Origin: Paraspadella gotoi
Taxonomy: Eukaryota; Animalia; Chaetognatha
DNA length: 64,000 bases
NCBI GenBank assembly: GCA_051294375.1
Contig: CM119264.1
Span: forward strand, 7,883,301 to 7,947,300
Reading direction: 5' to 3'
Of the stretch, positions 3,001 through 58,252 are shown one piece after another (position 1 is the first letter of the stretch; each line of letters begins with the position of its first letter). The position numbers were made by a program, and so were the translations under genes. The notes beneath the pieces were generated by a model. That model worked only from the letters and a program-made list of their open reading frames with translations. It was not told where the DNA came from and made no database searches.

Positions 3001-6000
3001 TTTGGCTCCACAAACAAGGGCGATCAGGTCAGGAAATATTACCGAGGACTTGTATCTATTTCTTCCTCCATTAAAGTGAGAGCGCTATTATTCAATCATT
3101 ATGACCATAGATGTCGTCTAAACACGGGACCTCCAACGACGGAGGAAAAGGTGGAAAGACCGTCAGCTTCGTGGAAGATATTCTTAGTGGAGGTATTTTT
3201 TGTAGAAAACATTGTCAGTTTTATTTTTCAGTGTTAATTACCTATAGTCATTTAGAGCGCAATATTGTTTTTAATTTTTAGGGCCGAAACTGTTCTCTGA
3301 AATTATTTTAAGGTCTTAGATCTGTACATTTTATTTTTGCAAAAATTACATCGTACAAGGTGGCGGTGGCGGCGGCAGCGGTGGTAATCTTCCAATCAAC
3401 CTCATCGGCGCCGGCGCCAGACGTGACGACGACGAAGTCATGGGCGGCGGCGGTCGCGCCTTCGGTGGCGAGAAGCGCGGCGGCGGTCTTAAGCTGGAGC
3501 GAATGGATTCGCGAGGTTTGACCGATCGACAGGAGAACAGCCTGAGTCAGTACGACCGTATGTACGAGCGACCCGAGCAGCGCGGACGCGAGCGCGGACA
3601 GCTCGGTCGCGCCGTCGGAGAGGAGGAGGAGCGGGGTGGTGGAGGAGAGGGCAGGACAGCGGGCGGAAGACGAAAGGAGGACGGAAGTTCGGGCAGGAAG
3701 GAGAGGAACTCCAACAAAAGCGCGAGCGGTGGTGCAGCTCCGTGGGGCAAGTCACTAGAAGAGCCTCGACGAGAAAAAGACGGTGAGTGCTGCAAACCGT
3801 TAGGGTGGGGCGAGGCGGGAGCGTTTGCTTTCTTTTCTCTTTACCAGTCACTTCCCCACCCCTCATAGGTGGCTCACATGGTAGAGACGAGGATCCCGTT
3901 CCTTCTCACCGCGGCGGTCGCGGCGGAAAGGGGGCCCCCACCAAGCGAGAAGAGTCGTTCCCTTCGTTTAAGCCAGAGGGAGAATCGTCATCTCGGTTCG
4001 TCGATAGCGATCCGGCGCCGGGTAGAGGCGGGCGGGGCGGATTTTCGCGTCGGGACGAAAATGCTTTCGGTGAGTGCGGGTTGTTTGAAACAATCTTCTC
4101 TAGATTCTAAATTACACTTTATTATTGTGGTTTTTTAAGCGTAGGCCCGTCTTGGGCGAGATTTAGGTTTACTTTTGATTTTTAGTGACGTCGTCGTCAC
4201 GATTTTTTACAATTGGATATTGTAAAAGTTTCATTCTATTCAGTTAAATTTGTTTCATTCATTCATTGTATTTTTTTAATACTTTTTTAAATAATGATTC
4301 CTTATCTTCACTTCAATCATTCATTATCATCGCATTAATCAATCATTCATTATCCTCTTAAGTTTTTGCACTATTCGAATTATGTATTCAAATTAAAAAG
4401 AAAATTCGTTGCGAAAACAAATCTTTTCTCTTGTTTAAATTTATACCAACATAATGAAAGGAAATTAACAAAGATTTTTTTTTAAATTAATTTTAAGATT
4501 TTTTGTTTTTTATTTCAACTTTTCCCTTTGCGCAGATTCCAAACGAGGGGCGGATCGACGCGGCGACGACTTTCCGCTGGGCGACCGTGGTAGAGGCGGG
4601 AGGGGAGTGAGAGGAGGCAAGTCTGGTCGAGGCGGCCGAGCGGGAGAGGAAAGACCAAGGTAAGTTTTGGGAAAGGGAGTGAATGCCAGAAAGGGAAAAA
4701 ATGTGTGGAGGAAATTACCCCAAAAAATATTTTTCGTTCCAGATTCAACGAGGGCGAGATTACCGCGGCTCAAGAGGCGGCGCAAATCAAAAACGCCATC
4801 TTTCCGCCTCAGAAACTGACGTTAAAGTCGTCAGTGATGCCTCTTAATACAGAGGAGATATCTCTTCGCCCGGCATCATTCGGTAAAGTGGAACGATCCC
4901 AGCTTAGTATTGTATAATAATATTGCTAAGTTTTATAATATAGCGAGCGAAAATTTATTTTCATTTGATCTATATATTCTAATAATAGGCGGAGCCACCA
5001 AAGGCGCCTCCATCGCGAAGACTAACAAAAGCACCAAGAAGCCGTCGACGACAACCTCTACGCCGACGACCGATTCCGGGAGCTCGGAGCAGCTCACCGC
5101 CTCGATGGCATCGCTCTCGGTGAAAAACGAGTGCAAGGGAAAGGCCGCCGCATCGCCTAAGGTCTGTTTTTTGTAATCGTCACCGTAATAGATAGGCCAT
5201 TTATTGCAATCGTGTTTTTTTTTTTCATTCAGAATTCCAGATCAGCCACGCCATCCTTGGTTCCCTCTTTCGACGAGGCGCGCGCCGTGGAGACGTTAAA
5301 GGCGCTCGTCACGTCGGCGGTCACCGATTTGCCCAACGGCGATGGCAGTCAAAGGGGGACACCTGAGCCTGACCAGGACTCGGAGTCCCAAGCGACGCGG
5401 ACCAAATGTTTGGAGGATGTTTTCGCTAGGGTCAAAGAGTTGTCGGCTCCCTCCAGGTATAGACAACGCTCGAGAGCACTAAAATTTGGTTTATGGCAAC
5501 AGCCGGGTTGCCTGTGATGCCCATTGGGATGGGGCATCTCACTGTTGGCTTTGGGGGCTTCCGACCCTCAGTGACGACTCCAGTCACTGGCGCGGTTACC
5601 CTAGGACGGTCTCGCTTTGCCAACGCAGAGGGAAGTCGTGAGAACTGTGGATGGAACACTACGCTTGGGATGGTGTGTTCCCCCTCTGAGCCAATGGATT
5701 TGGCTGAAGGATGGTCGATGTGAGGCGGTGTGAATATACCGCCACAGGTTGATGTTAAATATAAACATTTTTTCCCTTTCTGTCAGCTTTGTGCCGACCC
5801 TGTTCGCGACGGTGTTGACTTCCGCCCACGAGGCCAGGGAGAATCTGTCGTCCCGCGACGTGGCCTCTCTGCTTCTTGTCTCACTAACTGCGTTGTCGTC
5901 GAACGCGGAAGGGATCGCCGGAACCGGATACGAACGCCTCCTTGAACAAATGCCTTCCTTCGAGGCAACCATCCCGAGGATCAAGGCGCATGTGGCGCAC

Positions 6001-8170
6001 TTCGTAGCGCAAGTGAGCATTCGTCCCTCTCCTCTTTGTAGCGTTACCATCATTTTTTAAAATGTCTTTTAGGAATAAGTTTTTGTGTTTCAATAACGAA
6101 TTTTATTGACAATATTGACGCCTATTGCCAAAAAAAAAGAAAATATTACAAAAAAGTCTTTTATAATTCTTACTTTTTACTTTATCCTGCTCCCCTATAT
6201 TCAGGCGGTGTTGTCGGAGGAATTGAGCCTTGGTCAAGTGGCGACCCCGTTGAAAGGTGGCGCCCACTTTCCCCTCTTCCTTCTCGCGCTACAGGCAATG
6301 GTCAAAGATCCTTCGCACAAAGACGAGGCGGAGGCTAAGAACAGAGTTAAGACGCTTGTCGACGATAGTGGGGTCAAGCTGCCCGATATGGTTCCGCAGG
6401 TGAATTGATGACGATTGACGAATGAAAGAATAGGCTTAGCCACTAGCCAGGATTCAACGTGATCAAATTTCTCTTTCTCTCTCGCAGACTTCCCTGCCAA
6501 ACCTGCTGTCGGTCTTCAGCGATCGCGGCCTCGGCTTCCTTCTGCCACTGCTGCGTCTCCGAGTGGAACTCAGCAAAGCGGTTAACGAGGATCCGACGCC
6601 AAAAGCCCTCTACTCGTGGCTGCAAGATCACGTCGATGACCCGAAGATGAGGGCCTCGCAAGACTTCATCCACGTCCTTACCACCGTGTAAGTTAGAATT
6701 CTTACAATTTTTTTTCAAATCCATAAAGAACTCTTCTTACCTCAGAAGAGTGCGGGGTTATTCGGAACATGGACAGATAAAATAAAATAAATCTTTTATG
6801 ATTTTTTTTTTTGTGCATTTAACTGCTAGTCAAATTTCATCAGTCATATTAGACGTAATGATTATTGAATATTAATATATGATAGACGAGACTACTTATT
6901 TTTAGTTATTGTAATTTGTATAGAGTATTTAAGTATTTTACAAAGCTGCAATTAAATTGGGGTAAAACGGAACACGTTTTAATTTTTTAAAAAATGTGAC
7001 CCCTTAATTTGTTTTCAAAATATATTTACTATGCGAAAATCTTGATTACTTCCATAAGTGTTCCGAATTACCCCGCACTAGTAGTCACTACCCTACATAT
7101 TTTTTATCACCCTTCTCTTTTTTTCAGTCTGTTGACCTACGTCACTGAGCAGTCAACCCTTCGAGGGGACGAGGCCGAGTCGTCGTCCCAGGTTCCCCCT
7201 GGCAAAGAGAAGGCCGAGCAGGAGCGACAGCAATTGGCCAAGTTCTCGCCGATTCTCAAGAAATTCGTTGAGGACGAGGAGGAGGATGCGGCTGCCAAGG
7301 GTGGCACGAAGGGCCCCAAAAAAAGGGGCGGCGCCGGTGGCGAGATGAAGAGACAGATCGCCCTTGTTTACTCCATGCAAGTTTTCTGTCATCAAAAGGT
7401 TCGCTAAAAAATTCGCGAATAGTGTTGAATGTGTGGTTTATTCTGTATAGAGAAAGATAGGGTTAAAGTGACCGAGAGGAAAGGGGGTCGCCGTGCCTCT
7501 CAGAGGATTTGGATAGCCACCATATTTAGTGTGCCCAGTGGGTCTGGGAGATTTTTGCGTCAGATGCTTTGCTTTTAGGAAATTTGGATCAGGCTTGCTA
7601 CCGGTGGTTTAACCGACCCGTCACTCTTTTACAAGGACCGTTCCGACTAGGGCTAGAACCCGGGAACATTGTATGTCCGAAGATGAAGCATTAGCATTAG
7701 CTATGGTGGCGTTGATGGAAGGAACGGTCGTATTCAACGGGTAGTGATATTACGTCACTTCAGGGTTTTAATTTGCAGTAAAGACTTTGTCCATCTTAAT
7801 GATAATCTGTATTTTTTTTTCTTTGCGTCTTTCCCCATTTTTCCCCTCTTCCTTCGTTTCTCTCTCTCCCTCCTGCCTACAGGGTTGGCCGAAGGGAATG
7901 TTGCTGCGTCTCTTCACTTACATGTACGACTTGGAGGTGGTCGAAGAGGAGGCCTTTCTTCAGTGGAAGGAGGACATCAACGACGCTTATCCCGGCAAGG
8001 GTAAAGCGCTTTTTCAGGTAAAGTAGCGCTTCGTTTACTTAAAAAAAAACTTTTTTTTTATTTTAATACGAAGCGATTCTTTTCAATTCCGACGTTTTCA
8101 GGTCAATCAGTGGCTGACGTGGTTGGAGCAAGCAGAATCCGAGGACGAAGACGACGAGGACGACTCTTGA
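2..8170 (+). CDS. EIF4G2: Eukaryotic translation initiation factor 4 gamma 2 (DAP5/NAT1/p97), multi-exon, 5' end outside window
   Basis: GT-AG exons join in frame. MIF4G: IFKKVRG|[21 protein letters not shown]...[44 protein letters not shown]5-type EISLRPA motif near 4855. MA3 region: [13 protein letters not shown]2: [41 protein letters not shown]|[25 protein letters not shown] at 8168-8170. Confidence 0.95.
592..694 (+). ncRNA. Candidate intronic box H/ACA snoRNA
   Basis: In eIF4G2 intron 548-762: hairpin (aacca/tggtt), H box ACAGCA 632-637, second hairpin (ggg..aaagac/gtcttt..ccc), ACA 689-691 about 70 nt upstream of the acceptor. Confidence 0.55.
2663..2773 (+). CDS. EIF4G2: Alternative eIF4G2 exon A ([10 protein letters not shown]...ADLFQ), paired with exon B at 2896-3027
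   Basis: AG|...|GT, 111 nt, phase 0-0. Begins DLG, as exon B begins DMG, at the position of the DAP5 DLG motif. Confidence 0.6.
5491..5746 (+). repeat. Structured ~255-nt dispersed element, family A, copy 1 (eIF4G2 intron)
   Basis: Near-identical to 18096-18350; homologous to minus-strand copies at 26092-26315 and 20661-20877; many hairpins. Confidence 0.9.
7466..7760 (+). other. Structured ~295-nt intronic element, family B (second copy at 12022-12303 in the duplicated block)
   Basis: Closing helix aagtgac/gtcactt; crossing 9-bp helices gccaccata/tatggtggc and gaccgttcc/ggaacggtc. Confidence 0.55.
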
Positions 8171-8951
8171 GCAATATTATTTTTTATTATTTAAAAAAAG
8201 ACATACAAATGGAAAAAAAACCTTTTATGGATTATTTAGTATATCGACTTGGTTTAAATTATGTTTCAAGGTTGCTGTTTTTTCTTTTCCTTATTAATGT
8301 TTACTAAAAAATTATCCTAGTTAATCCGTTTTAATCACAAATCAACCTTTTTTTCGCTATCCCGGGCTACAACGAATCGATATTTTTTAAAGAAATACGT
8401 TGTAACCTTTATACGAATAGTTACAATAATTTTTATTCGTTCTATCCTTAAATACACTACAAGTTTATATTCTTTTGACGTGCGCCCTATACATATAGAC
8501 CTGGATTTTTTTATATCTGTTGAATTATCAACCGGTTTAATCTTTCTCTCTCAAGTTAGGGGTCTCCCCTTTCTCAACTTGTATCTTAGATCAGTAGTTG
8601 TATCAGTTGAATGATTAAACCTCAAAAGTAAAAGCAAGCCGATCTACGTAGTCGAGCGCATTTTTTTTACAATTGTCAACGAATGAAAATATTGCTATGA
8701 CGCGTGTATCGATTAAACAATTAAAAGAAAAAAACTTTTCTTTTGCGACGTCAATTTAAAAGTTAACACAGATAGGTCATCACTCCGAAAAAAATTTGCA
8801 GCAGCGGAAAACTGAAAAGATACTAATAAATTTGAATCCCTACCCTAGTGAAAAAAAAACTTATTAAAAAAGGGTACAATATATTAAGCGAGAAATGAGA
8901 ATTATTGCGCTCACACTCTTCGTCGGGCCGAGCGAAAGGCATTCTCGTAAC

Positions 8952-9092
8952 TCAGTGCTGCTTGAATTCTTGTGTGGCCAGGTTGCACTCGTTCGCCAGC
9001 TCGTAGACTTGCGGGTTCTTCAGTTCTCGCTCTGTGGGCACGCGATAGTCCCGCACGTGGGGCGGAACCAGGATTCGTATCGTCTTGAAATT
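8952..9092 (-). CDS. Duplicate of the FAM78-like terminal exon (NFKTIRILVPPHV...EFKQH*)
   Basis: 141-nt exon, nearly identical to 13491-13631. Confidence 0.7.
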   Translation of the reverse strand, partial: NFKTIRILVPPHVRDYRVPTERELKNPQVYELANECNLATQEFKQH

Positions 9093-10212
9093 CTGAGAGC
9101 AGAAAATTGGTTTTTCGTTTTATACTATTGAATTACTATTGCGATTAGAGAAAAAAGTCATGGAACTAGGGCCAATCCATGTCAATGGGGTGGGTCAGAA
9201 GTTTGATTTGTGAACCTTCCGAAATTAAACTTAATACATTTCTGAGAAAAATTTCAATGTACCAAATTTTATTAAAATGGCTAGAAGCACTAGTAATTAT
9301 TTGTTTAATTTATTATTTATTTATAGATAGGAATTTTTTTTTAAATTTTGTATTTTTTAAAGCAGATTCAGATAGTTTATGAAAAGTTGTCTACACAAAG
9401 TATAATTCTAAGTGGGTCAAAATTAGGAAAAACCTAGTTTTCGGTAATAAAACATCAAAGTTTTAATTACAATTTTTGCTTAAATTTTTGAGCTCTATCA
9501 GAATAAATTTAAAAAACTTAAAATATAAAAAAAGTTTTACATTATATATCAATATGATAATTTTAAACATTTTTGCAAAAAAATATTTTAACACAATGAC
9601 TAACACCAATAATGGATTTGTTTAATGCTGTTCCCATTAAAATTAGCTTAGTTCAAACCTATTAAATAAAATTAGAAAAGTGATATTTTTTTAATATTAA
9701 AAAAATTATAACTCTTTAACCGATAATCTTTTTTAAAATTCTTTCAGCAAAACAAGCATTATTTCTTTATTCAATTCGCCATAATTTTTTTACAAAATAT
9801 TTCACAAACATTGTTAAAAAATATCATTTTTTAAAAAAATTTATCAAAAATTGACCAAAACAATTGGTTTAAAAAAAATTTTCTTAGTAAAAAACTAACT
9901 AATTTATAATGCGAGTATGTAACATAGTCAATTTTTTCCACTCTACAAGATAGTTTGGGTTTCGTCCTCTAGCAATAAAGCTTTATAGATATTTAGCAAA
10001 AAGTCTATTTTTTACCATTTTTTTTCATTTTTTTTCAAAGTTGGCAGCATTTACTGTAAATTTTTTTTTGAAAAAAAATGTTCAAAAAATTCATATGATG
10101 TATGGGCACCTTTTACACAATACTCGTTTTTTGATTTCAAACTTTTCATATATGGCAAAGGTCTAGTAGTACACTACCCTACATATTTTTATCACCCTTC
10201 TCTTTTTTCCAG

Positions 10213-11065
10213 TCTGTTGACCTACGTCACTGAGCAGTCAACCCTTCGAGGGACGAGGCGAGTCGTCGTCCCAGGTTCCCCCTGGCAAAGAGAAGGCGAG
10301 CAGGAGCGACAGCAATTGGCCAAGTTCTCGCCATTCTCAAGAATTCGGTTGAGGACGAGGAGGAGGATGCGGCTGCCAAGGGTGCACGAAGGGCCCCAAA
10401 AAAAGGGCGCCGCCGGTGGCGAGATGAAGAGACAGATCGCCCTTGTTTACTCCATGCAAGTTTTCTGTCATCAAAGGTTCGCTAAAAAATTCGCGAATAG
10501 TGTTGAATGTGTGGTTTTTATTCTGTTGGGGATGCGCATCGTTTCTAAACAACTCATTGTTTTATATCAAATTTGGTAGCGTTCGAAGACAATTGCCAAA
10601 CATTATCTACATGCATAATTCATATATCCGATAATCCGTTCAAAGTAATCGCCAAAAGCAATCGCAAAAATCGCTCTTCAAACCGATCAACTTTCCTTTA
10701 AAATCGAGCTCGTTTTGATCCAACAAGATTAGACTATGCGTAGTACTAAGCTTTAGAACCGGCGCACAGTGAGATCCTGGGCTGATTTTTCAGAAAAATC
10801 CCGTTCAGTTAAAAATATTTTTTTATTATATATTAATTATAAAAATTTTTTTTTAATTTATTTGAATATTAAAATAATTAAAACAAAATTTTTATAATTT
10901 TAAATAAATAAAATAAATATATTTTATAATAAATATATATTATTATTAGATTATATAATAATAATAAAATAAATTATAATAATAAAATAATAATAATAAA
11001 AATAATAATTATAATTAAAAAAATAAAATTAAAAATAAAATATTTATATTTATTTATTATTATTA

Positions 11066-11098
<33 letters not shown>

Positions 11099-12712
11099 AT
11101 AAAAAAAAATAAAATTTTTTGATTTATTATATTTAATAGATTATTATATTTTATTAAAATTAAAATTTTATTTTAATTTTATATTTTTAATCATATCATA
11201 ATAAAAAAACTTGCAGTTTAAAAAATTAGTTAATTTTATTGTAAAATATATTTTTTTATACAATATATACTTTTTAATCTATATACTACCTTTCTCAGAT
11301 TGAATAAAAAAAAATTATTTTCAACACTATAATTATATTTATATAAATATTTTTATATATATATATTATTATATATATATATAATATTTAAAATTTATTT
11401 TTCTAGCATTTGGGACTCACAAGCAACACTGTCGACGATTTTTATTTTTAATAAGTTTTTATTGACTTTTTTTAAATTTTGCATTATATTGAGAAACGCT
11501 TTTGAATTAAGCCCGCGCTCTACCTGATTTGAATAGTAAATCAATACAGTTTCTGTCAATTGGATCAAAATTGAAAAAAAATGAAGGCTTGACTATGCAG
11601 TTTTCACCTAAAAAACCAGTTCATTTGATTGCTTTATCAACAATTAAGATTGCAAGAATTTTAATTTTGCCTTTTTTTTATCATGTAGAGAAGACAATAA
11701 GGTTTCGGAAACTGGACTAATATGTATGATTTGGTATTTTTTCTCAAGACCCAGGAGGTTTTCTTGGATTAGGGAAAAAACGCCCTGACCAGTCAATTTA
11801 AATACCATTTTGGCATGATAAAAATGGGAATATTCGATCGCGCTCTACCTCCATTGGCTTCCCAAGACGCCAAGCTTTCGAAATCTGCCCCATATTGATA
11901 TAATTTGTTTTGGCCTTGACTATGCAGTTTTTGAATAGAAGTGAAATATAAAGGAACCTTGATCGGAGCTTCGATTCGAACGATGCTCATCTCTAATTCT
12001 GTATAGAGAAAGATAGGGTTAAAGTGACCGAGAGGAAAGGGTCGCCGTGCCTCTCAGAGGATTTGGATAGCCACCATATTTAGTGTGCCCAGTGGGTCTG
12101 GGAGATTTTTGCGTCAGATGCTTTGCTTTTAGGAAATTTGGATCAGGTTGTAGAACCGACCCGTCACTCTTTTACAAGGACCGTTCCGACTAGGGCTAGA
12201 ACCCGGGAACATTGTATGTCCGAAGATGAAGCATTAGCATTAGCTATGGTGGCGTTGATGGAAGGAACGGTCGTATTCAACGGGTAGTGATATTACGTCA
12301 CTTCAGGGTTTTAATTTGCAGTAAAGACTTTGTCCATCTTAATGATAATCTGTATTTTTTTTCTTTGCGTCTTTCCCCATTTTTCCCCTCTTCCTTCGTT
12401 TCTCTCTCTCCCTCCTGCCTACAGGGTTGGCCGAAGGGAATGTTGCTGCGTCTCTTCACTTACATGTACGACTTGGAGGTGGTCGAAGAGGAGGCCTTTC
12501 TTCAGTGGAAGGAGGACATCAACGACGCTTATCCCGGCAAGGGTAAAGCGCTTTTTCAGGTAAAGTAGCGCTTCGTTTACTTAAAAAAAAACTTTTTTTT
12601 TATTTTAATACGAAGCGATTCTTTTCAATTCCGACGTTTTCAGGTCAATCAGTGGCTGACGTGGTTGGAGCAAGCAGAATCCGAGGACGAAGACGACGAG
12701 GACGACTCTTGA
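10213..12712 (+). pseudogene. EIF4G2: Second copy of the last three eIF4G2 exons (first exon frameshifted)
   Basis: Matches 7128-8170; several small indels in 10213-10477; no upstream exons. May be an allelic or low-quality assembly copy. Confidence 0.7.
10527..11995. mobile_element. Non-autonomous hAT-like DNA transposon with very AT-rich interior
   Basis: Imperfect TIRs tggggatgcgcatcgtt / aacgatgctcatctcta; flanking duplication attctgt (10520-10526, 11996-12002); empty site at about 7440. Confidence 0.8.
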
Positions 12713-13490
12713 GCAATATTATTTTTTATTATTTAAAAAAAGACATACAAATGGAAAAAAAAACTTTTATGGATTATTTAGTATATCGACTTGGTTTAAA
12801 TTATGTTTCAAGGTTGCTGTTTTTTCTTTTCCTTATTAATGTTTACTAAAAAATTATCCTAGTTAATCCGTTTTAATCACAAATCAACCTTTTTTTCGCT
12901 ATCCCGGGCTACAACGAATCGATATTTTTTAAAGAAATACGTTGTAACCTTTATACGAATAGTTACAATAATTTTTATTCGTTCTATCCTTAAATACACT
13001 ACAAGTTTATATTCTTTTGACGTGCGCCCTATACATATAGACCTGGATTTTTTTATATCTGTTGAATTATCAACCGGTTTAATCTTTCTCTCTCAAGTTA
13101 GGGGTCTCCCCTTTCTCAACTTGTATCTTAGATCAGTAGTTGTATCAGTTGAATGATTAAACCTCAAAAGTAAAAGCAAGCCGATCTACGTAGTCGAGCG
13201 CATTTTTTTACAATTGTCAACGAATGAAAATATTGCTATGACGCGGTATCGATTAAACAATTAAAAGAAAAAAAACTTTTCTTTTGCGACGTCAATTTAA
13301 AAGTTAACACAGATAGGTCATCGCTCCGAAAAAAATTTGCAGCAGCGGAAAACTGAAAAGATACTAATAAATTTGAATCCCTACCTAGTGAAAAAAAACT
13401 TATTAAAAAAGGGTACAATATATTAAGCGAGAAATGAGAATTATTGCGCTCACACTCTTCGTCGGGCCGAGCGAAAGGCATTCTCGTAAC

Positions 13491-16400: not shown

Positions 16401-19400
16401 TTATGAAAAGTTGTCTACACAAAGTATAATTCTAAGTGGGTCAAAATTAGGAAAAACCTAGTTTTCGGTAATAAAACATCAAAGTTTTAATTACAATTTT
16501 TGCTTAAATTTTTGAGCTCTATCAGAATAAATTTAAAAAAACTTAAAATATAAAAAAGTTTTACATTATATATCAATATGATAATTTTAAACATTTTTGC
16601 AAAAAAATATTTTAACACAATGACTAACACCAATAATGGATTTGTTTAATGCTGTTCCCATTAAAATTTGTATTTGGTCGGCGACCCTAATGGAACGATC
16701 GGACGATTTCGCGAAAGTTGGTTCGCCATCCGCCAATCGCTCCTCGTCTCCATGGCTTACCAAAATAAAAGACCTTTACCAAGCCGGTGGTCCGTACTCT
16801 TAGGATAATTGAGAAGCTTGACCTATTAACGCCAGTAAACCCATCGACTTATAGTTTTTGTACCTGTGGCAAGTTGCTGTTGAACGGACGCCACACCAGC
16901 ATTTGGGCGTGGTTGGCGTCTGGCGGGAGTTTGGCGACTTTTGGAATGGGTGGCAGTCTGGTGACGAGTCTCGGCATTCCTGAATCTAAAGNNNNNNNNN
17001 NNNNNNNNNNNNNNNNTGTATTTGGTCGGCGACCCCTAATGGAAGGATCGGACGATTTCGCGAAAGTTGGTTCGCCATCCGCCAATCGCTCCTCGTCTCC
17101 ATGGCTTACCAAAATAAAAGACCTTTACCAAGCCGGTGGTCCGTACTCTTAGGATAATTGAGAAGCTTGACCTATTAACGCCAGTAAACCCATCGACTTA
17201 TAGTTTTTGTACCTGTGGCAAGTTGCTGTTGAACGGACGCCACACCAGCATTTGGGCGTGGTTGGCGTCTGGCGGGAGTTTGGCGACTTTTGGAATGGGT
17301 GGCAGTCTGGTGACGAGTCTCGGCATGTCCTGAATCTAAAGAGACAGGATTAGAGTTCCGATAACCGTTAATTTTTTAGGAAATTCGCTTAACCGTTAAA
17401 ACTAACATTTTTTAACGGTTAACCGTTAAGATCGGTTAATTTTATAATTTAACTTTAAATTTAAAATATTAAGATTTAAAACAAACTAAAGTATTTAATG
17501 GTATTTTCTCTTTAACTCTGGCTTTTGAATGCGCTGATAAAGACTTGAAACAGAGTCGAAACATGTCTGTTTTTTATGTCAAATAAAATTGTTGTTGTAA
17601 CAAAACAATAATTTTTGCTAATCTCATAACACAACGAAACAAAAGGATACCATCAAATTCTAATTCTATATTTTGTTTTCTCTTTCTCTCTTTTGCTTTC
17701 TTTTTTTCTTTCTCAACTTCTCTTCCTCATTATTTTTGTAGTTGTTAGTTTCTGATTATTGATAGACTGGTTGATTTATCGATTGATCAAAAGATTTATT
17801 GATTAATAAATATATTTTTCATTTTAATTAAAAAGTATATCATCATTATTGAAGGATAGTTTTAGTTAGCCTTAATGTCTTTTTTTAAGATTCGTTCCTT
17901 CTATTATTAATTTTAAAATTTTTTAAAAGAGTTTGAAATGAATTTTCAACAACGATTATATCTTTAATAAAAAACGGACATGTTTCGGCTTAACTACATA
18001 GGCGTTTGTCGTAGCGTACCCGAAGTCGGCAGGGCATAGGCGTTTGTCGTAGCGTACCCTGAGAAGGTTGCGTGTTCGATAGTAGGGCTCACCACTTATG
18101 GCAACAGCCGGGTTGCCTGTGATGCCCATTGGGATGGGGCATCTCACTGTTGGCTTGGGGGCTTCCGACCCTCAGTGACGCATCCAGTCACTGGCGCGGT
18201 TTACCCTAGGACGTCTCGCTTTGCCAACGCAGAGGGAAGTCATTAGGTTTGTGGATGGAACATTACGCCTGGGATGGTGTGTTCCCCCTCTGAGCCAATG
18301 GATTTGGCTGAACGATGGTGGACGTGAGGCGGTGTGAATATACCGCCACAAGGGATTATTTATTTTTATCTAAATTGAATATATATTATTGCATGGAAGG
18401 GCCAAAAAAAAAGGAGAAAAAAGAAAGGGGGAAAGAAAAAGGGGAAAAGTGAGAAAGAAAAAGAAAGAAACAGGAGGAGATAAATAAAGAGGAAGAAAGA
18501 ATAAGAGAGAGATTAGGATAGAAAAAAAATAAAGGAAAAAAGCAGGGAAAAAGTGGAGAAGAGAGAGAGGGATAAAAATATGGTGAGAAGGGGAGAGGAG
18601 AATAAGAGAGAACAGGAAAAAAATATAATTTTTTTTTATAGTGGTAATAACCTTTCTTTTTCGTTGTTGTATGTATTTGGGCAAAATGATTTTTGTTTTA
18701 CAACGAATTTTATTTTATCATAGAAAACGTACATGTTTCGGCTTTGGATGCAAGCCTTCTTCAGCGTCAATGATTTGTGAAAATTTGTACAGTTTTTTGT
18801 GTGAAAGAAGGAGAGAGAGAGAGAGAGAGAGAGATAGGGCAAAGTTTCCAACACAGAGTTGAGAAAAATAGTAGTGGTCAAGTGGTGAGGACAGGTTAAG
18901 AATGAGGACAGATAGAGATTTTAGTTTTGAATAAGAAATGAAATGGTCAGAGTGAGAGAGATTGAGAGAGAGAGGAGAGAGAGAGGGAGAGAGAGAGAGA
19001 CAGGGAGAGAGAAAATAATATTACATTTCAAATGTACAACAAATAAAGTTTTTAAACTGTTATTAACAATTAACTATTTAATAAATAAACAAGTGAAGGT
19101 GAAAATGAAATGTGAAAGTGAGAAGATACATTTAGTGTAAAGAATTGTTAATAAAGTTAGAAATTAAGAATTGTCGTCTTTATTACTAACTCCTGTAATA
19201 ATTGACGAATCTATTTAGCCTAATATATTAATAGAGGATTGAGTATTCACTATAGTTATATTAAATAAGGTAAAACAAAAGAAATAAAACGGGAGAGAAT
19301 TACAAATTGTTACTCGGCCAAAATCACGACTGAAGAATTACAAGCGATCGAAAACCAAAAAGCATTTGTTTACAATTCGGCGAAGGTTATTTGTAAACTA

Positions 19401-21428
19401 CAAGACCGAGATTTTGTAATAATACTTTAATATTCTGACACCGCCCTCCTAAAATATAATTAATCAATTAAATGAATTTATTAATTATTCAAAAGTAAAA
19501 CAAAATTGAGGGCCAAGAAACAAATGTAAAACAATAGCAAAAAGGTACACCGTCATACAGGTGTAAGCCTCTTTAATAACCGTTAACAGTTAACGGTTAT
19601 CGGAACACTAGACAGGATTCGTTGAGCGCGCACGCGCGAAACAAGTAATATCTCAACTCGGTCATGCGAGTCATTTTTCAGATTAGTTTACCAAGGGTTC
19701 TTTGAGGAATCCTCTCGTCCCACAAGGGTTACGGGGTTCGACTTGAATGTGAATGTCGCAATCCCATGACAAGCACTTGAGTTCGATACAATCGCCTTAT
19801 TGGTGAACGAATTCAATGATTTGAAATAAAGGTTCTTAGTTACATCCATTGCACAAAATCGAGGTTACGCCGAAGTGATCGAATTGTTAATTGACTGTTT
19901 TTGATGCAATCGCGTTTCCGTCGACCTGTGACTTCGTTAAAAGCGACGAGCCACGAAAAGAACTTTTGTTTTCGTTTGATGCACGTTAAATCGAGTCCTT
20001 CGGGCGAACAATCGGGATGCCTGGTCGGGGCCTGTCGCCGTCGGGTCGCGTGAGAATTTTTACTTTTATTTCTCTGCAACGCATAATCACCTTGAGGGTA
20101 ACGTGAGAGGCAGGACTGTCGCTCATGGCAACTGTGAATGTAGTTTCCTCTTGCGATCATAAAAGGGGGCGGGGAGCAAATTAACGTTTACATGAGCCAT
20201 GGCACCTCTTTTCTTTTCGGTCAGTCGTCTGACGTTCTGACCCCCTCTCTCCCCCCCTCATCGCCTCCATACGCGAAATGGGTCCGGCCAGTTGGAAGAT
20301 CTCTCTGTCGTGACCGTAGAAAGGGTATGACTGCCCGTCCGAGTCGTTTACTCCGGGAAGGCCCACGTTGAGCTGCGGGAATTCCCAAGAGCTAAACCCA
20401 ATGGTAGAATACCTGTTAAAAGGGTAGCAAAACTAAATAGATCTCCCAAGGTTGTCATTAGTGGAGAAAGCGGAATAAGGTGATTCTAAATTGTCGTCTT
20501 ACACGTTGGCAAAGTTCATGAAATAGCAAGATTGGACCCAACCAATTGTCCAGACTTGACCAATTGGAACTGTACTTTTCGGCCAGCCAGTCAATCGATC
20601 AATCGAGTTAATAATAATGCTCTAAAAATATATTTGCCCTCTTGTAGAATTAGACTGGAAGCTGCCTCACTGCTGTTCGTCTTCAGTCTCGTCTCAATGG
20701 CTGAGCGGGCTAAATCATCTCGTTTCAACCGTGCTTCCGGGTTCAGTCCATGGTTATCCCGGTACTGGCTTAAATGTGACGGAGCCAGTGACAGCAGGCG
20801 GTCACTCAGGGTCCGCAGCCCCTACGCCAGTTGGTGAGATGCCCCGGGTATCACAGGCAATCCTTCCGTTGTCATAAGCTGATTATTAATGGATTGAATG
20901 CTATAATTGATCGCAATGCCTGGCGGCGCCGTAACAGTCGCTTTTGCCCGCATCGTCGGGGTCCTTGAATAAAATATTACCGAAAAAGTTTTTCGATCAA
21001 GAGCGAATTTTAAAAGAATTCGAATAAAAAATTCAACATCTCACAAAGCTTTCTCACATGAAGATGAAAATTTTGTCGTTTCTCTCTTCTATTTTGGTCG
21101 GATTAGGATTTCGATAAACTTCGAGTCGAACTGTTTGTTTCAAGAGAAACTCGTGTTATGGTCCTCATTTGTGCGAAAGGTTCTCACCTTGAACTTGTTT
21201 TTGAAGTTGATCTCGTGGAACCCACCCATCTACGCTGTGTCCTTGAAGAGTAAGTCTCGAAGTCAAACTCGTTAAAGTGTTACGTAGGAACTATCGATTC
21301 AAGGCCGTCCATCTCATTTCGTAATGAACCAATAGTTCCTCGGCTACCATTTTTTTTTATTTTAAGATTAAATATTTTTGTTTAAACTTACTCGTCTCGT
21401 TCTGTCTGAAGGAATTTCTGTTTCCCAT
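13491..21428 (-). CDS. FAM78: FAM78-family protein, multi-exon
   Basis: Reconstructed: MGNRNSF...NPTKIEE...TPTMRAKATVTAPP|VPIGQVWTIGWVQSCYFMNFANV|YSTIGFSSWEFPQLNVGLPGVNDSDGQSYPFYG...FTVAMSDSPASHVT...LTCIKRKQKFFSWLVAFN...EPL|IQDMP...DANHAQMLVWRP...|NFKTIRILVPP. Matches remembered FAM78A/B motifs GWIQAC, SSWELP, SDSDGxxYPWYG, FTTWLVA, ANDAQVLMWRP. The first exons are less certain. Confidence 0.88.
13744..16230 (+). mobile_element. Non-autonomous DIRS1-like tyrosine-recombinase retrotransposon
   Basis: About 143-bp inverted repeats (13757-13900, 16053-16195) with non-identical outer extensions. Internal complementary region 14653-14741 is the reverse complement of both termini joined at ATT. 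Frameshifted gag-like remnants at about 14800-15870. No RT or recombinase ORF. Empty site at 9206-9208. Confidence 0.9.
16668..17341. other. Scaffold gap (25 N, 16992-17016) flanked by the same ~325 bp; unmerged contig overlap
   Basis: 16668-16991 is almost identical to 17017-17341, including one FAM78 exon. Confidence 0.9.
17531..17570 (+). ncRNA. Minimal type I hammerhead ribozyme, core-mutated
   Basis: gcg CTGATAA a gact-tgaaacag-agtc GAAA CATG TC tgt; G8 replaced by A. Confidence 0.7.
18096..18350 (+). repeat. Family A structured element, copy 2 (nested in hAT, antisense to FAM78)
   Basis: Aligns end to end with 5491-5746. Confidence 0.9.
18726..18768 (-). ncRNA. Minimal type I hammerhead ribozyme, intact core
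   Basis: Minus strand: gacg CTGAAGA a ggctt-gcatcca-aagcc GAAA CATG TA cgtt; palindromic ACATGT stem III; AATAAA just downstream. Confidence 0.85.
20661..20877 (-). repeat. Family A element, divergent copy 4 (FAM78 intron, sense)
   Basis: Minus strand: ttatgacaac...ttgcctgtgatacc..ggggcatctcac...ggggct..gaccct.agtgac...gtcactggc...ctgaag...gtgaggc. Confidence 0.75.
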
Positions 21429-22802
21429 TTTTGGGCCGGGTCCTTTACGCGTCTTTTAACTTCCTACGTCTACTCTATTCGCCTCGTATTAAAAAAAAAT
21501 ATGCAAGTATTGGCTATTTAGGTCTTTCGTTAGTGATTTTCGTTTGTAAGCCATTTTTCTTAATTCTTTTCTCTTTCGTCATTTATACGAGTTGAGTTTC
21601 GTTTCGTTTAACTCTTTTATTTCTTTTTGTGTCTTTGTTCTAATTAAAGCACGAAATCTTCGCCTATCTTTAAAAAACTTTACCTAACGGTGAAATGATT
21701 TATGTATTTAGATTTAGAACCTAATGATTATATTTTTTACTAGCTGCGTTTAAAAATTTACGGATATTTCTAGCTCTTTCGCTGTACCTGCCGAGCCCAG
21801 AGTAGATCTCTCCTCTAACAACAAATAAGCAACTTAATTTAATGGAATAAGACATGAAGGATACAATGGGAGATTGTTTTGAATGAAAAAGTTGGGACCA
21901 AATCACAGCGGCAATTCGAGTGTCACACCATATATTATTTTTAAGAATTTGTGATGGATAAATTTTAATTTTAAAACGTAATTCCCGTGAAATGGCATAA
22001 AAAAGATAACGTCAAGGCTTCGCGATGACTAGTACACATAACGGATATATTGTCGCGTTTTTTTAAAATTCGGGCTTCAAGAGAGACAATGAAAATTTAT
22101 TCGATGAGACAATGTATTTGTGCATGAGACGCCGAATCTTTCGTTTTTAAGCAAAAGAGACGCAAGTTAAAAAAAAAAACACCGATTTCGCTCGCGAAAG
22201 GCAAAGAAAATAATCTTCTGAAGAAAAAATAAATAAAACTTAAGTTAATAAGTAGTTAAAATTAATCCCGCGAATTAAAAAAAAAAAAAGCACATGAGAG
22301 CTGCGATTTGTTTCTCTTTGATCAGAACGACGACGTCGAGGACGACGACGACGACCGTTCCGATCCCCCCACCTCAACGACAGACGATGGCGCCAAAGAA
22401 ATCAAATGACATCAAATGAAATCAATCGAAATTAACGAAAATCGATAAATAAGAAATAAAGAAGTGCAAACCGCCCACCCACTCCCGCTTCCCTCTCTCG
22501 CGTTGTCCGTTTTTTTTTTTCTGACAATACTAAGGAGGAGGGGAGGGAAGATGGTGATATTAAAGTATCGATCGAAAACGTCGGTCGATTCGTCTGGAGA
22601 GAGTGTCAAAGAGAGAGAGAGAGAGGGAAGCTCCAGTCATTATTCTCTTCTTTTTCTACGACCGACGGAACGACTCGATGCACGACACCACCTTATCCCC
22701 CCCCCCCAACCCCCGCGGACCGATTTAAGCTGCGGCTCATCCTCCTTCCCTTTCTCCCCTCCTGCCGGCGTCTTCTCTCTATCCGGCGATCCTTTCCTCT
22801 TC

Positions 22803-23967
22803 CTACTCTTCGGCCGGGGCGTCGGCGGGCGCCTCTTCCGGCGCCGATTCCGTCGCAGTCCCTTCTCCCTCTCCCTTCTTCTTCTTTTTGCCCAAAGCGT
22901 CGGCGCCAAAGGCCGGCTTCTCCTTCTCTTCCCCGAGGTCGAACTTCTGGTCGGGATTCGTCGTCGCCTGGTGGAGGAAGAAGAAGAAGAAAAAAAAAAG
23001 AACAACTCAATCTAACATTTTCATTTTAAAGGTTAAACCCCCCCAAAAAATAACCAAATAGTATTGATAAACAACAGCCCTTCGCGACTTACCTTGAGCC
23101 CAGATCGGAAGGCGGCGGCTTTGGCAGAGTCGGATTCTCCAGAGGATTTCTTGATCTTCGCCGCGGTTTTGTTGACGCGTTTCAGTTGAGGCTTCATGCT
23201 GCAAAAATCGTTGAGGATTGGTTAAAAAGTAAAAGGGGTTTGATAGGTCAATTGGGTCGTCATTAATTATATCAATATGGTAGCATTTATTATGTGAATC
23301 GATTTTTAAAGTATATAAGTGATTTAAACTAGTAAATAGTCAACGCTATTGATTGGTGAAAGAATGAGAACTGATTGTGACTGTCTTCAAAAAAATGAAA
23401 CTCACAATTTGCCGGTGCCCTCGTTGACTGACAGCGTAAGCTCGTTCATGTCGTAGTCTTGTTTGACCATGGAGAGCTCCAGAGCGAGCTTCTTCTCTTC
23501 AGTCTCTTGCACCCATTGATACAGGGTGACGCACTTTTGGATGAGATCCTCTGCAAGGGACAAAAATGGTGAGCATTGGAATTACTTTTTTTTGAAGGAT
23601 GAAAATGATAATTTGTGTATAAATACTGGGAAAAAATCCCCTCTTTCCATTTTGGTCTTCAAACACAAATCGAATATAGTTTTGGACTCGATTTACCAAC
23701 ACAAAGACGACAAATAGCTAATCTCACAACCTCCTTCATTCCACCAGTCAGACCAACCTCACCGGCCCAACTTAACTGACCTCCCACGCTTTCAAACTCA
23801 CCCTCCTCGTATCCCTCGATGTCGAGCGGGGGCACGAGCTCGTCGACGGCCTCCTTCTTGGCGCGGTCCTTCTCCAGCCTCTCCCTCTCAAGATCCTCTT
23901 GCGCCTTCTTCAGGATCAACACCTTCAGCATGCGCTTCTTCTCCTTCGTCAACTTGAACTTCCCCAT
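22803..23967 (-). CDS. TNNI: Troponin I, paralogue 1 (4 coding exons)
   Basis: MGKFKLTKEKKRMLKVLILKKAQEDL...KQDYDMNELTLSVNEGTGKF|MKPQLKRV...AFRSGLK|ATTNPDQKFDLGEE...AEE*; canonical splice sites. Confidence 0.92.
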
Positions 23968-24199
23968 CCTCGTCTGCGGTTAAGGGGGGGCGGGCTGGGG
24001 GAAGGGACGGCAGGGTAAGAATTGAAATTTTATGCCGATTTTCCATACGGCCTTTGGGAGTTCTGATCATGACCCTTTTAAAGAATGCGAGATAGTATAA
24101 TATGAAACTTGCTCTGTTCAATTGTTTCGCTGATTTTTTATTGTTGAAATTGCTACAATGATTGTCCATTCAAAAAATTATCCATTCATTTAAAAAACA

Positions 24200-24296
24200 A
24201 ACTACCTGACCCTTAATATGGCGATTTAAGGAATCCATCCCTTCTACAAGATGATAACATTGCAAGATCTTGCAAGCTTTCAATCAAGACTCTCAA
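24200..24296 (+). repeat. Dispersed repeat fragment, homologous to 63866-63956
   Basis: Shared gatttaagg...tacaagat.at.acat.gca...tgcaagc.ttcaatcaagactctc. Confidence 0.7.
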
Positions 24297-24976
24297 CATT
24301 ATTAAAATTTATTCATTAAAATGTGGCTTCAGTTACTGATTGCCTTGTTCCTCTAGTCGAATTTGCTTCTGAAAATCAAGACATTTACGTAGGAGGTCGT
24401 TTCGGGTCATCTTGCTGAAGCCAAAGTCAACTCGGGCTGATTCTCTCCCTATCTCTCTCTGTATAAAATATATATTGGTTGTACCAATTTCATAAAGTCG
24501 TCAGAACATTTTAGATATGTTATTATGTACTAGCTAAAAAGAAATAGCGAATCTAAACTCCTGTCGGCTAATATTAAATAATAATTAAACTGTTACTAAA
24601 TAACGATCGAAAATTAGAATGTTTTATTGTTTATCACATTGATATGATTAAAATCATCGATGATGACGCGCCCCGCAGAAGCTATTTAATGTTAATGTTA
24701 AAAACAACAGTTCATAGATAATAAGTAATAAAAGGTGACGAAAAATTTCGCCCTCAAAACTGTCGTCCAGAATTTCTTTTCCAGTCGCTCTTTCCGATTA
24801 GAGAATAAATTAAATGTCTCCACAACCAGCGCCACAACCGTTTCCACAACCTCGAAGTTTTAGTAAAATCCTCCATAAATCGTTCAAAAGTTTTACATTA
24901 CTCCAACACCTCGTTTAACCCCCTCCATTTCCCCCCCTCCACCTTTCCCCAAAATACTCCAACCCCTTCTCTCCGT

Positions 24977-26389
24977 TTAAGCCTCGGCCTCGGAGGCAGT
25001 GTTGACCTCCGCGTGCGCTTCCCCGTGCTTCTTGTGCTTCTTCTTCTCGAGGACGTCCTTGAAGTCGGGTCTCTCTTCCTCCTTGGCCAATTCGAACTTC
25101 TGCTCTGGACCGGAAGTAGCTTTGAGGCCGGAGCGGAACGCGGCCGCCTTCGCCGCCTCCTCGTTACGCTTCAACTTGATCTTGTTCTTCGTCTTGTTCA
25201 CGCGCTTCAGCTGCGGCTTAAGGCTTTTTTTCGTGTGATTGTCGATGATCGTTTGTTATTTTTTGTGACATGGTTTTGTTTAATTGAAGTTAATTTTTGT
25301 TTACAATATAGATTTGGGGGTGGGAGATAAATAAAGGAGAGAAACGTTAAAACCAGGATTGCGATTTGAAAAATTAAACGACCGCATGCAAAATATGTAG
25401 AAAGACATATCCGGCCAAGTCAGTCCCGGACCATGCAATTAAAACTAACCATGCCAATTAGGAAACTTGCCTCCAATCCTTCTCAACAGCTTTTTTTAAG
25501 ATAAGCGTTTTTGTAATAATAACATTTCCAGTTATCTCACGGAAACTGAAGCATGCACAGAAATAGAAGCCTGTACTCACAATTTTCCGGACATCTCGTT
25601 GATCTGTACGGTGAGTTCGTTGAGCTTAGATAAAAAGGTTTTCATGAGTACAGATCAATCGGAGATAACCAGTTTTCAAATATGATTCACTCGAAAGAAT
25701 ACTAATTCTTAAACCGTTATTACAACTGGTTCTACCTCAAAATCCTTTTTGATAATTTGATACTCTTTTTCCAGCTTCTTTTTCTCCGCCTCCCAGACCC
25801 TCTGATACAATTGCTTGAGCTTCTCGACCAGGTCATTTTGCGAGGCGCCATCTATGTCTAACGGCTCCACAGCCGCATCAACAGCAGCCTTTTTCTCCTC
25901 CTCTCTCTTCTGCGCCTCCAGCAGCAGATCTTGCTGCACTTTTTGAAGGATCAGAACCTTTGGGTTTAAAGAACAACTTATTGTCATTTGTCATTATTAT
26001 CTTTTACATGTGACTACTGAAGAAAGAATTTTCGGGTCATATAGTAATTAGTCTTTGCGTATTTAAGCACTGCGCCACAGACCCTTAATCAGGTATATTC
26101 ACACATCCCCCATACTTCAGCCATTGCCATTGGCTCAGTGGGGGCACGCACCATCCCAAGCGTTGCGTTCCATTTACAGTCCTAACGACTTCCCTCTGCG
26201 TTAGCAAAGCGAGACCGTCCTAGGGTAACCGTACCAGTGGCAGGCGGTGCTACTAAAGCTAAAAATAAGATGACCAATCCCAATGTGCATCACAGGTAAC
26301 CAAGCTGTTGCCATACAACTTCGTAGTTTTACCTTAAGCTTTCGCTTTTTCTCTTTGGTAAGAACGAACTTCTTATTTTTCGCCACCAT
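24977..26389 (-). CDS. TNNI: Troponin I, paralogue 2 (4 coding exons)
   Basis: MVAKNKKFVLTKEKKRKLK|VLILQKVQQDL...KKDFE|LNELTVQINEMSGKF|LKPQLKRV...RPDFKDVLEKK...EAEA*. Confidence 0.92.
26092..26315 (-). repeat. Family A element, copy 3 (troponin I paralogue 2 intron 1, sense)
   Basis: Minus strand: tatggcaacagc...ggttaccctaggacggtctcgctttgctaacgcagagggaagtc...gtgtgaatatacc. Confidence 0.88.
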
Positions 26390-44499: not shown

Positions 44500-48310
<3,811 letters not shown>

Positions 48311-48730
48311 AAGAAGAAAAGAAAGAAAGTAAGTTGGAAGTCGAACCGCAGCCTAAAGATGGACAATCAGCCTTTCGTCGATATAAATTTAGAAAAAAAA
48401 AAAAAAAGAAATAAGAAAACAAGACGATATAGAGAAAACGAAGAAGACGACGCCGACGGGCAGAACAATGACCTCATCGACGATCCCGTTGTCGTTGACG
48501 ACCATAATGACGACCATAATGACGACCACGGAGGGGAATCAGAGAGAAATCGAAAAATAACCGTCGACGAAAAGTTAATCGGACGATTTCATCGGAATTA
48601 ACGACGCCGCCCGATCAATAATAAGTCAATGACGGCGCTGGTGACGCCGAAGACGCCGCGCGCTGCCAAGACTTTCGTAAATATCATATAAGATTACTGT
48701 TGGAAGATTACCGAAGAGCATCGCGCCGCC

Positions 48731-58217: not shown

Positions 58218-58252
<35 letters not shown>

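What the first reader, a model, noticed from the sequence alone, without database searches (positions are those of the whole stretch)
5491..26315. Family A: ~250-nt multi-helix RNA-like element with compensatory changes, filling introns of three unrelated genes
Seen: four copies (5491-5746 +, 18096-18350 +, 20661-20877 -, 26092-26315 -) share the 5' boundary tatgRcaac, with no clear TSD, TIR, poly(A) or tRNA head. Helices: ggcaac/gttgcc, gatgccc/gggcatc, cagtgac/gtcactg, gttggc/gccaac, cagagggaa/ttcccctctg or ggaacac/gtgttcc, agcca/tggct, ggcggt/accgcc. Copy 3 has two compensatory double changes (ttGgc/gcCaa to ttAgc/gcTaa; acAc/gTgt to acGc/gCgt). Copy 4 keeps several stems while changing loops. 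Three copies are sense to the host (eIF4G2, TnI-2, FAM78), start 17-42 nt after the donor and occupy most of a 330-375 nt intron. Copies 1 and 2 end at hairpin + ACA. Inference: a mobile structured RNA selected at the structure level. Options are an unrecognised ribozyme or 5' module of an I/Nimb-clade LINE (weak remembered resemblance), a novel SINE, or an intron-processed ncRNA. I could not match it to hammerhead, HDV, twister, snRNA, SRP or RNase P/MRP cores.
Basis: partly seen in the sequence, partly recalled or inferred. Interest (0 to 1): 0.8.

Follow-up and report, generated by a model that had tools for sequence, protein, structure and literature searches.

The report
Animal LTR retroelement carrying twister ribozyme
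This 255-base repeat, scattered at many sites in an invertebrate animal's genome, is likely the terminal repeat of a tRNA-primed jumping element when read on the opposite strand, and it holds a predicted self-cutting RNA (a twister ribozyme), a layout we found described only in plants and with a different ribozyme.

Summary
The four copies are real, but they were read on the wrong strand and are not an intron-born RNA. In one DNA run the 255-bp unit has at least 267 different left flanks, sharp ends, and summed depth thousands of times that of its flanks. On the opposite strand it runs TGT...ATA. At copy 2 it is followed by a 2-nt spacer and a tRNA-Trp primer-binding site (12/13, plus an 18/18 T-arm match), and this flank is itself high-copy. 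Copy 1 has a 4-bp target duplication. The unit is therefore most likely an LTR, and the intronic copies are antisense solo LTRs. On that same strand copy 1 holds a complete type-P5 twister ribozyme (21 of 23 scored features; 2 of 5000 shuffles reach this), although Rfam scores it below threshold. Copy 3 shows a compensatory pseudoknot change but lacks the cleavage segment. Best reading: an animal LTR retrozyme that uses twister instead of hammerhead. Cleavage, circular RNA, the polypurine tract, the second LTR and the helper element were not shown.

The parts
5492..5746 (-). Copy 1: complete 255-bp unit, read as a solo LTR (TGT...ATA on the minus strand), antisense in an eIF4G2 intron
5544..5624 (-). 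Predicted type-P5 twister ribozyme: P5 5624-5619 with 5549-5544; P2' 5615-5612; L1 GA 5611-5610; T1' 5609-5607; P1 5606-5599; UAA 5598-5596 (predicted cut between 5598 and 5597); P2 5595-5592; T2 GC 5591-5590; P3 5589-5569; P4 and L4 5568-5553
5488..5491 (+). Left copy of the 4-bp target-site duplication of copy 1 (GGTT)
5747..5750 (+). Right copy of the 4-bp target-site duplication of copy 1 (GGTT)
5683..5693 (-). Pol III box-A-like 11-mer (1 mismatch in c1 and c2, exact at the same place in c3 and c4); box B poor
5457..5786 (+). Host intron of copy 1 (330 nt, GT-AG), spliced in run X9
18097..18350 (-). Copy 2: LTR still joined to the start of the internal region; two single-base indels in the twister core that are not among the common variants of run X1
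18082..18094 (-). Primer-binding site, 12 of 13 complementary to the 3' end of a tRNA-Trp, after a 2-nt spacer (18095-18096)
18062..18079 (-). Second block of tRNA-Trp complementarity, 18 of 18 to the T arm and variable loop
17997..18061 (-). Further internal sequence with a ~38-bp tandem unit; high-copy; truncated at this locus
20643..20876 (+). Copy 3: diverged subfamily, antisense in its host intron; keeps P5, GA, P3, P4, most of L4 and a covaried T1, but lacks the P1-UAA-P2 segment; no TSD
26092..26315 (+). Copy 4: decayed LTR, antisense in a troponin I intron; 5' end and twister L4 lost

Best explanation
The 255-bp unit is a high-copy interspersed repeat that, read on the minus strand, is likely the long terminal repeat of a probably non-autonomous, tRNA-Trp-primed retroelement and holds a predicted type-P5 twister ribozyme, so it would work as an animal LTR retrozyme. 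Shown: copy abundance, sharp ends, a high-copy tRNA-Trp-complementary flank 2 nt from the end, one 4-bp duplication, a full twister motif in copy 1, variation kept out of stems. Inferred: a transcript spanning two LTRs self-cleaves 149 nt into each LTR. The released unit is ligated into a circle. A Gypsy-type reverse transcriptase primed by tRNA-Trp copies it. The integrase removes the 2-nt spacer and inserts solo-LTR, full or multimeric cDNAs with 4-bp duplications. Copies 1, 3 and 4 are solo LTRs that enlarged small introns and sit antisense to their hosts; they are not intron products.
For: Abundance and ends: run X1 summed depth 1.5-2.0 million over the unit against 169-254 on the flanks; 267 left and 128 right loose ends in the rows shown, agreement 0.41-0.47; flank majority ATAT-like on both sides in X1 and X9. 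PBS: ARAGORN tRNA-Trp in L025; 12/13 and 18/18 matches, blastn E 5e-5 in the window, 0 of 2000 shuffles reach the alignment score. The flank is high-copy in X1, X5 and X9; a second internal variant joins the same PBS in 4 of 4 runs; c3-like LTR letters follow the same PBS in X5. The Trp PBS with 4-bp TSD is described for the CsRn1 Gypsy lineage (PMC3630058). Twister: all conserved core letters and both pseudoknots match the published layout (PMC8501958 Table 1; Rfam consensus). A strict descriptor gives 1 hit in 128 kb and 0 of 20000 shuffles; the score test gives 21/23, reached by 2 of 5000 shuffles. T1 is CGG/CCG in c1 and CCG/CGG in c3; P4 is fully paired in c3 and in a 4% variant of X1. 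One-sided stem changes in c3 and c4 are G-U on the minus strand in 5 of 5 cases. P1, P2 and P4 imperfections are tolerated by tested twisters (PMC11662667).
Against: No Rfam family reaches threshold. Twister-P1 scores only 17.6 bits, E 0.12, gathering 67.2; the P5 model gave no listed hit and c3 gave none. The descriptor and score were written after seeing the sequence. c1 has a mismatch in P2 and in P4 and a 2-bp P1, and the minimum-energy fold of the segment (-31.5) is not the twister fold (-17.6 without pseudoknots). Only 1 of 4 copies is intact. Conservation of twister-specific positions against other unpaired positions is weak: 1/34 vs 15/111, P 0.07. The 5:0 strand bias has P 0.06, and one helix read by eye favours the other strand. 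TSD in only 1 of 2 testable solo copies. The LTR ends in TA, not CA. No polypurine tract, second LTR or helper element was seen; only ~100 nt of internal sequence is in hand.
Confidence: 0.6

Rival explanations
1. An ordinary TRIM, possibly Helenus-like with a degenerate pol III promoter in the LTR. The twister match is a relic or does not cleave, and the structure serves packaging or strand transfer.
For: Box-A-like motif at the same place in all 4 copies. Animal Helenus use Gypsy primers including Trp and make 4-bp TSDs (PMC10886601). Rfam twister score is sub-threshold. 3 of 4 copies lack an intact core.
Against: Box B has 2-3 mismatches, there is no T4 terminator, and ARAGORN and Rfam see no tRNA in the LTR. 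A box A with one mismatch is expected by chance in about 1 of 6 sequences of this length (my estimate). The common X1 variants leave the catalytic letters untouched.
Confidence: 0.17
2. The same LTR with twister, but belonging to an autonomous Gypsy-type retrotransposon with a long coding internal region, the ribozyme defining the RNA ends.
For: Trp PBS and 4-bp TSD fit the CsRn1 lineage. Contigs run several hundred unseen bases beyond the internal piece (table 8).
Against: The internal sequence seen is a tandem 38-bp unit and a GA-rich tract in two variants. Cleavage inside both LTRs would remove the terminal redundancy that a linear LTR RNA needs (PMC4918200).
Confidence: 0.12
3. A tRNA-headed SINE read on the first reader's strand: a tRNA-Trp-derived head, then the structured body, with headless copies made by precise processing.
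For: On that strand the c2 flank resembles tRNA-Trp with CCA directly upstream of the unit, and the second variant adds D-arm-like letters.
Against: Shared sequence continues upstream of the supposed head. There is no tail and the 3' end is sharp. The anticodon arm is missing. The twister motif would be antisense.
Confidence: 0.05
4. A non-autonomous DNA element (MITE, Helitron-like or recombinase-moved) whose terminal hairpins act in single-stranded DNA.
For: Hairpins lie 3 nt from each end, the ends form a short imperfect inverted repeat, and both strands fold well as DNA (z -3.2 to -4.7 for c1 and c2).
Against: It does not explain the high-copy tRNA-Trp complement at a fixed 2-nt distance or the twister core.
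Confidence: 0.04
5. An intron-processed host ncRNA (H/ACA-like or telomerase-like).
For: Three copies lie in introns in the same orientation; hairpin plus ACA at one end; an intronic telomerase RNA exists in Caenorhabditis (PMC12921731).
Against: Hundreds of unrelated flanks and no conserved 3 nt after ACA; no Rfam match; 3 of 3 in one orientation is equally what antisense LTRs give.
Confidence: 0.02

Closest known systems
Plant LTR retrozymes (Cervera et al. 2016, PMC4918200)
   Same: Ribozyme inside a short LTR, PBS next to the LTR, 4-bp TSD, many solo LTRs, presumed Ty3/Gypsy helper.
   Different: Animal host; predicted type-P5 twister, not type III hammerhead; tRNA-Trp, not tRNA-Met; a second tRNA-complementary block; 255-bp, not ~350-bp LTR; circles and polypurine tract not shown here.
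Animal non-LTR retrozymes (PMC7761336; bioRxiv 10.64898/2026.07.22.740005)
   Same: Animal, non-coding, ribozyme-bearing repeat.
   Different: Those are tandem type I hammerhead repeats tied to Penelope-like elements and are stated to lack LTR, PBS and PPT.
Animal TRIMs: ta-TRIM of taeniids (PMC4558846), Helenus and Ajax (PMC10886601)
   Same: Short LTR, tRNA PBS, 4-bp TSD, solo LTRs in the thousands.
   Different: No ribozyme in the passages read. Helenus LTRs hold a near-complete tRNA with boxes A and B; this one has box A only.
Twister variants of Schistosoma Perere-3 (PMC8501958)
   Same: Twister core in an animal retrotransposon.
   Different: Type P1 at the 5' end of a non-LTR element, with P1 formed from the target site; here type P5, internal to an LTR.
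CsRn1 lineage of Ty3/Gypsy (PMC3630058)
   Same: tRNA-Trp PBS, 4-bp TSD, short LTRs; the likely kind of helper.
   Different: Autonomous with gag-pol; no such ORF was seen here.

Membership tests
Twister ribozyme | Cleavage-site UAA, L1 GA with the general-base G, L2 GC, conserved L4 letters | tested here: met
   All present in c1 minus strand against PMC8501958 Table 1 and the Rfam consensus; not intact in c2, c3, c4
Twister ribozyme | Pseudoknots T1 (3 bp) and T2 (2 bp) | tested here: met
   Both Watson-Crick in c1; T1 covaries in c3
Twister ribozyme | Stems P1, P2, P4 | tested here: inconclusive
   P2 3 of 4, P4 2 of 3 plus the invariant G-C, P1 2 bp with a palindromic core; such imperfections are tolerated
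Twister ribozyme | Rfam gathering score | tested here: not met
   17.6 bits against 67.2 for twister-P1; no P5 hit listed
Twister ribozyme | Self-cleavage | not testable with these tools
   needs an assay
TRIM / LTR retroelement | PBS just 3' of the LTR | tested here: met
   12/13 to tRNA-Trp after a 2-nt spacer, high-copy in 3 of 4 runs and present in the fourth
TRIM / LTR retroelement | TG...CA termini | tested here: inconclusive
   TGT...ATA; TG...TA ends also occur among Helenus consensus LTRs
TRIM / LTR retroelement | 4-6 bp TSD | tested here: inconclusive
   c1 yes, c3 no; c2 and c4 not testable; ATAT-like flank majority on both sides
TRIM / LTR retroelement | Second LTR and polypurine tract | not testable with these tools
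   no genome held; read-laying shows 30 letters of loose ends only
LTR retrozyme as defined in plants | Type III hammerhead in the LTR | tested here: not met
   no hammerhead hit in the copies; twister instead
LTR retrozyme as defined in plants | Circular unit-length RNA in cells | not testable with these tools
   only contigs of one RNA-like run
LTR retrozyme as defined in plants | Non-coding internal region | tested here: inconclusive
   only ~100 nt seen
Helenus (TRIMp3) | tRNA-like sequence with boxes A and B inside the LTR | tested here: inconclusive
   box A 0-1 mismatch, box B 2-3 mismatches or lost; no ARAGORN or Rfam tRNA; no motif shared with the published set
tRNA-derived SINE | tRNA head at the element's 5' end and a 3' tail | tested here: not met
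   shared sequence continues upstream of the tRNA-like part; no tail
H/ACA RNA or intronic telomerase RNA | ACA three bases before a conserved 3' end; low copy | tested here: not met
   flanks vary directly after ACA; hundreds of sites

The most novel reading that the evidence does not exclude
An animal LTR retrozyme: a Gypsy-dependent, tRNA-Trp-primed element that uses a circularly permuted (type P5) twister ribozyme to cut its transcript into a circular RNA and has spread to hundreds or thousands of sites. It would show that the LTR-retrozyme strategy arose again outside plants with a different ribozyme and primer. The palindromic P1 core may let two ribozymes pair, and the loss in copy 3 centred on the cut site may be a scar of copying across the ligation junction.
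Probability: 0.5. Interest if true: 0.82.

Novelty: new variant of a known kind. Interest (0 to 1): 0.7.

Why it matters
In the passages read, reviews up to 2026 describe LTR retrozymes primarily in plants, with hammerheads, and describe animal retrozymes as lacking LTR, PBS and PPT. Twister is tied only to non-LTR elements there. A twister inside an animal LTR would give this ribozyme class a second mobile-element role and a type-P5 example in an animal repeat. It would point to an abundant circular RNA that can be tested with one in vitro assay and one RT-PCR. It also shows that permuted ribozymes below Rfam thresholds can hide in high-copy repeats.

Tried and rejected
Rfam at gathering over the window: 0 hits. 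By E-value over 5000-27000: 5 chance hits, none in a copy. Nematode-type intronic telomerase RNA: rejected on copy number; a template-like stretch in c1 is absent from c3. SRP, RNase P/MRP, U3, 7SK, HDV, hammerhead and pistol resemblances were considered from recalled motifs and dropped, as no full core fitted and Rfam saw none. Metagenome pattern scan: 22 matches, none extends beyond the pattern. Viral-contig scans: 1 chance match, then 0 and 0. L024 has the same spacer plus extended Trp PBS, but no gag-pol lies next to it in 10 kb of nested repeats, so it was not used as a comparator. No RNA holder on record was listed; X9 is a guessed RNA run, though it holds the spliced host mRNA. Its element depth (25,000-112,000 against 527 on exons) cannot give strand, ends or level and is not used as evidence. 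Summed contig depth is not a copy number: the ratio of about 8,000-10,000 is an upper bound, and overlap of short contigs could inflate it up to about 30-fold (my estimate). Runs X10 and X11 hold the repeat at depth about 2-20 in other samples; I cannot tell relatives from carry-over. Host lineage not resolved: the eIF4G2 exon is 52-70% identical to named brachiopod, insect, mollusc and chordate proteins alike. Earlier findings of the scan: none. Literature searches for a twister in an LTR element found none; the library lacks most subscription papers, and Repbase and Dfam could not be searched. Of the Helenus supplement I read part 1 of 11 and ran two term searches; the bioRxiv preprint's supplements were not seen.
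Full report
Observation. Four related copies exist and no fifth: c1 5492-5746, c2 18097-18350, c3 20643-20876, c4 26092-26315. c1 and c2 are 94% identical; c4 is 78% to c1; c3 is 72% over its first ~110 nt. The host is an animal: an eIF4G2 exon hits MIF4G and metazoan eIF4G2 proteins, and the c4 host exon hits Troponin. The lineage was not resolved and no genome is held. The c1 intron (5457-5786) is spliced in run X9. The c3 and c4 introns were read from sequence. FAM78 as the c3 host is recalled, not confirmed.

It is a high-copy insertion. Laying run X1 on c1 gave 7,756 contigs, with summed depth 1.5-2.0 million across the unit and 169-254 beside it. In the rows shown (339 more were not), 267 loose ends lie at the left boundary and 128 at the right, with agreement 0.41-0.47, so the flanks are unrelated. 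The right boundary is exactly at ACA, with no tail. The majority flank letters next to both ends are ATAT-like in X1 and X9. Summed depth is not a copy number; hundreds of sites are shown and thousands are plausible. Of 18 sites with a minor share of at least 3% in X1, 2 lie in the nine helices (110 of 255 positions; 7.8 expected; P 0.003, base-matched 0.008, 0.012 without the outer 31 nt), and those two pair with each other. I left out three sites private to c1.

The unit is joined to a primer-binding site. The left flank of c2 is itself high-copy: 0.55-1.1 million in X1, 18,000-51,000 in X5, 12,000-27,000 in X9. A second internal variant joins the same stretch in 4 of 4 runs, and in X5 four contigs continue from it into c3-like letters. 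On the minus strand the unit reads TGT...ATA, then a 2-nt spacer, then 13 nt that are 12/13 complementary to the 3' end of a tRNA-Trp called by ARAGORN in L025, then an 18/18 match to its T arm and variable loop (E 5e-5 in the window; 0 of 2000 shuffles). I found L025 with a pattern shaped partly by recall; a wheat tRNA-Trp fragment carries the same T-arm letters (PMC8722339, passage). A Trp PBS with 4-bp TSDs marks the CsRn1 Gypsy lineage (PMC3630058, passages) and is used by some Helenus TRIMs (PMC10886601, parts 1-4 and 6 of 6 of the main text and supplement searches). Extended tRNA pairing beyond the PBS is recalled from Ty1; I saw only a search listing. c1 has a 4-bp duplication, c3 has none, c2 is bounded by internal sequence and c4 has lost one end. 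I read the unit as an LTR, so the three intronic copies are antisense solo LTRs. The polypurine tract, a second LTR and a helper were not seen.

A twister ribozyme lies on the same strand. Rfam gave only sub-threshold twister-P1 alignments on the minus strand (13.4 bits for c2; 17.6 bits, E 0.12, for c1), covering UAA to L4. The missing 3' strands lie upstream instead, which is the type-P5 permutation (PMC5408937, passages). In c1 the order is P5, P2', GA, T1', P1, UAA, P2, GC, P3, P4, L4, P4', P5' over 5624-5544, matching the columns of Table 1 in PMC8501958 (passages). A strict descriptor hits once in both strands of the window and in 0 of 20,000 shuffles. A scored version allowing P1 or P5 order on either strand gives 21 of 23 for c1, reached by 2 of 5,000 shuffles; c2, c3 and c4 score 19, 20 and 16 on that strand, and 70 of 5,000 shuffles score 20. 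Both tests were written after seeing the sequence. c1 has one mismatch each in P2 and P4 and a very short P1; tested natural twisters tolerate these, though an A-C mismatch in P4 lowers cleavage somewhat (PMC11662667, passages). c3 swaps T1 to the complementary triplet, pairs P4 fully and changes two P5 pairs compensatorily, but lacks P1-UAA-P2. c4 has lost L4; c2 has two indels that are not common in X1. Within the ribozyme the common X1 variants fall in the P3 loop, the P1 loop and one P4 position where the variant pairs. Against: the Rfam P5 model is silent, the twister fold is not the minimum-energy fold, and the extra conservation of core positions is only P 0.07. One-sided stem changes in c3 and c4 are G-U on the minus strand in 5 of 5 cases (P 0.06), with some arms placed by eye.

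Mechanism. Two independent features, PBS and twister, share one polarity. Plant retrozymes have this layout with a hammerhead: cleavage in both LTRs releases a unit without terminal redundancy, which is circularised, primed by tRNA and copied into solo, full or multimeric cDNAs (PMC4918200, passages). I infer the same cycle here, with the cut 149 nt into the LTR and a Gypsy-type helper. None of these steps is shown.

Comparison and novelty. The element fails strict membership of plant retrozymes (no type III hammerhead, animal host) but likely works like one. Animal retrozymes are described as lacking LTR, PBS and PPT (PMC7761336 and bioRxiv 10.64898/2026.07.22.740005, passages). Twister is linked to non-LTR elements (PMC9695139, passages; PMC6765202, passages, names none in LTRs). 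Three searches found no twister-bearing LTR element, within the limits of the library. The Helenus reading rests on a box A in all four copies but lacks a good box B, a terminator and any tRNA call. I also read passages of PMC4558846, PMC3587641 and PMC12471100 and the abstract and one section of PMC12921731.

Verdict. A new variant of a known kind. I put the LTR reading at about 0.85, an active twister at about 0.7, and the full retrozyme reading at 0.6. Interest 0.7.

Noticed in passing
window 13743-16230: Element with split inverted terminal repeats and an internal region (14653-14741) complementary to both ends, the layout of a DIRS-type retroelement (recalled). It is present in one copy of a duplicated segment and absent from the other (junction near 9206), with no clear TSD.
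   Followed up: partly
window 7078-9644, 10163-10526, 11996-16668 and 16669-17341: Near-identical duplicated stretches with small indels and an N gap: probably haplotype or assembly duplication of the eIF4G2 3' end.
   Followed up: no
window 17354-19610: Inverted termini of about 20 bp beginning TAG with an 8-bp duplication: a hAT-like non-autonomous element that contains copy 2. Its interior is multi-copy in X1.
   Followed up: partly
window 18722-18768 (minus) and 17920-17991: Minimal hammerhead of Penelope type (motif recalled) and a half copy of it next to the internal region of copy 2; the half copy is a separate high-copy repeat. Rfam did not list it.
   Followed up: partly
window 26055-26085 (minus): tRNA 5'-half-like sequence replaces the lost end of copy 4, perhaps a SINE head (weak 10-nt match).
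   Followed up: no
window 20570-20919: The intron holding copy 3 appears to use a GC donor.
   Followed up: partly
window 23000-28400 (minus): At least three troponin I-like genes in tandem; one exon confirmed by Pfam.
   Followed up: partly
L024 200-245: An unrelated contig has a 2-nt spacer followed by a 35-nt perfect complement of tRNA-Trp including CCA, among nested DIRS- and BEL-like remains.
   Followed up: partly
table 5c, joint 5573-5680: One X1 contig shows a further subfamily with a different palindromic P1 core and a different P2, keeping the A after the cut and the T2 GC.
   Followed up: no
window 24219-24294 with 63879-63954; 48174-48365 with 58099-58297; 44913-45453: Other short dispersed or inverted repeats.
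   Followed up: no
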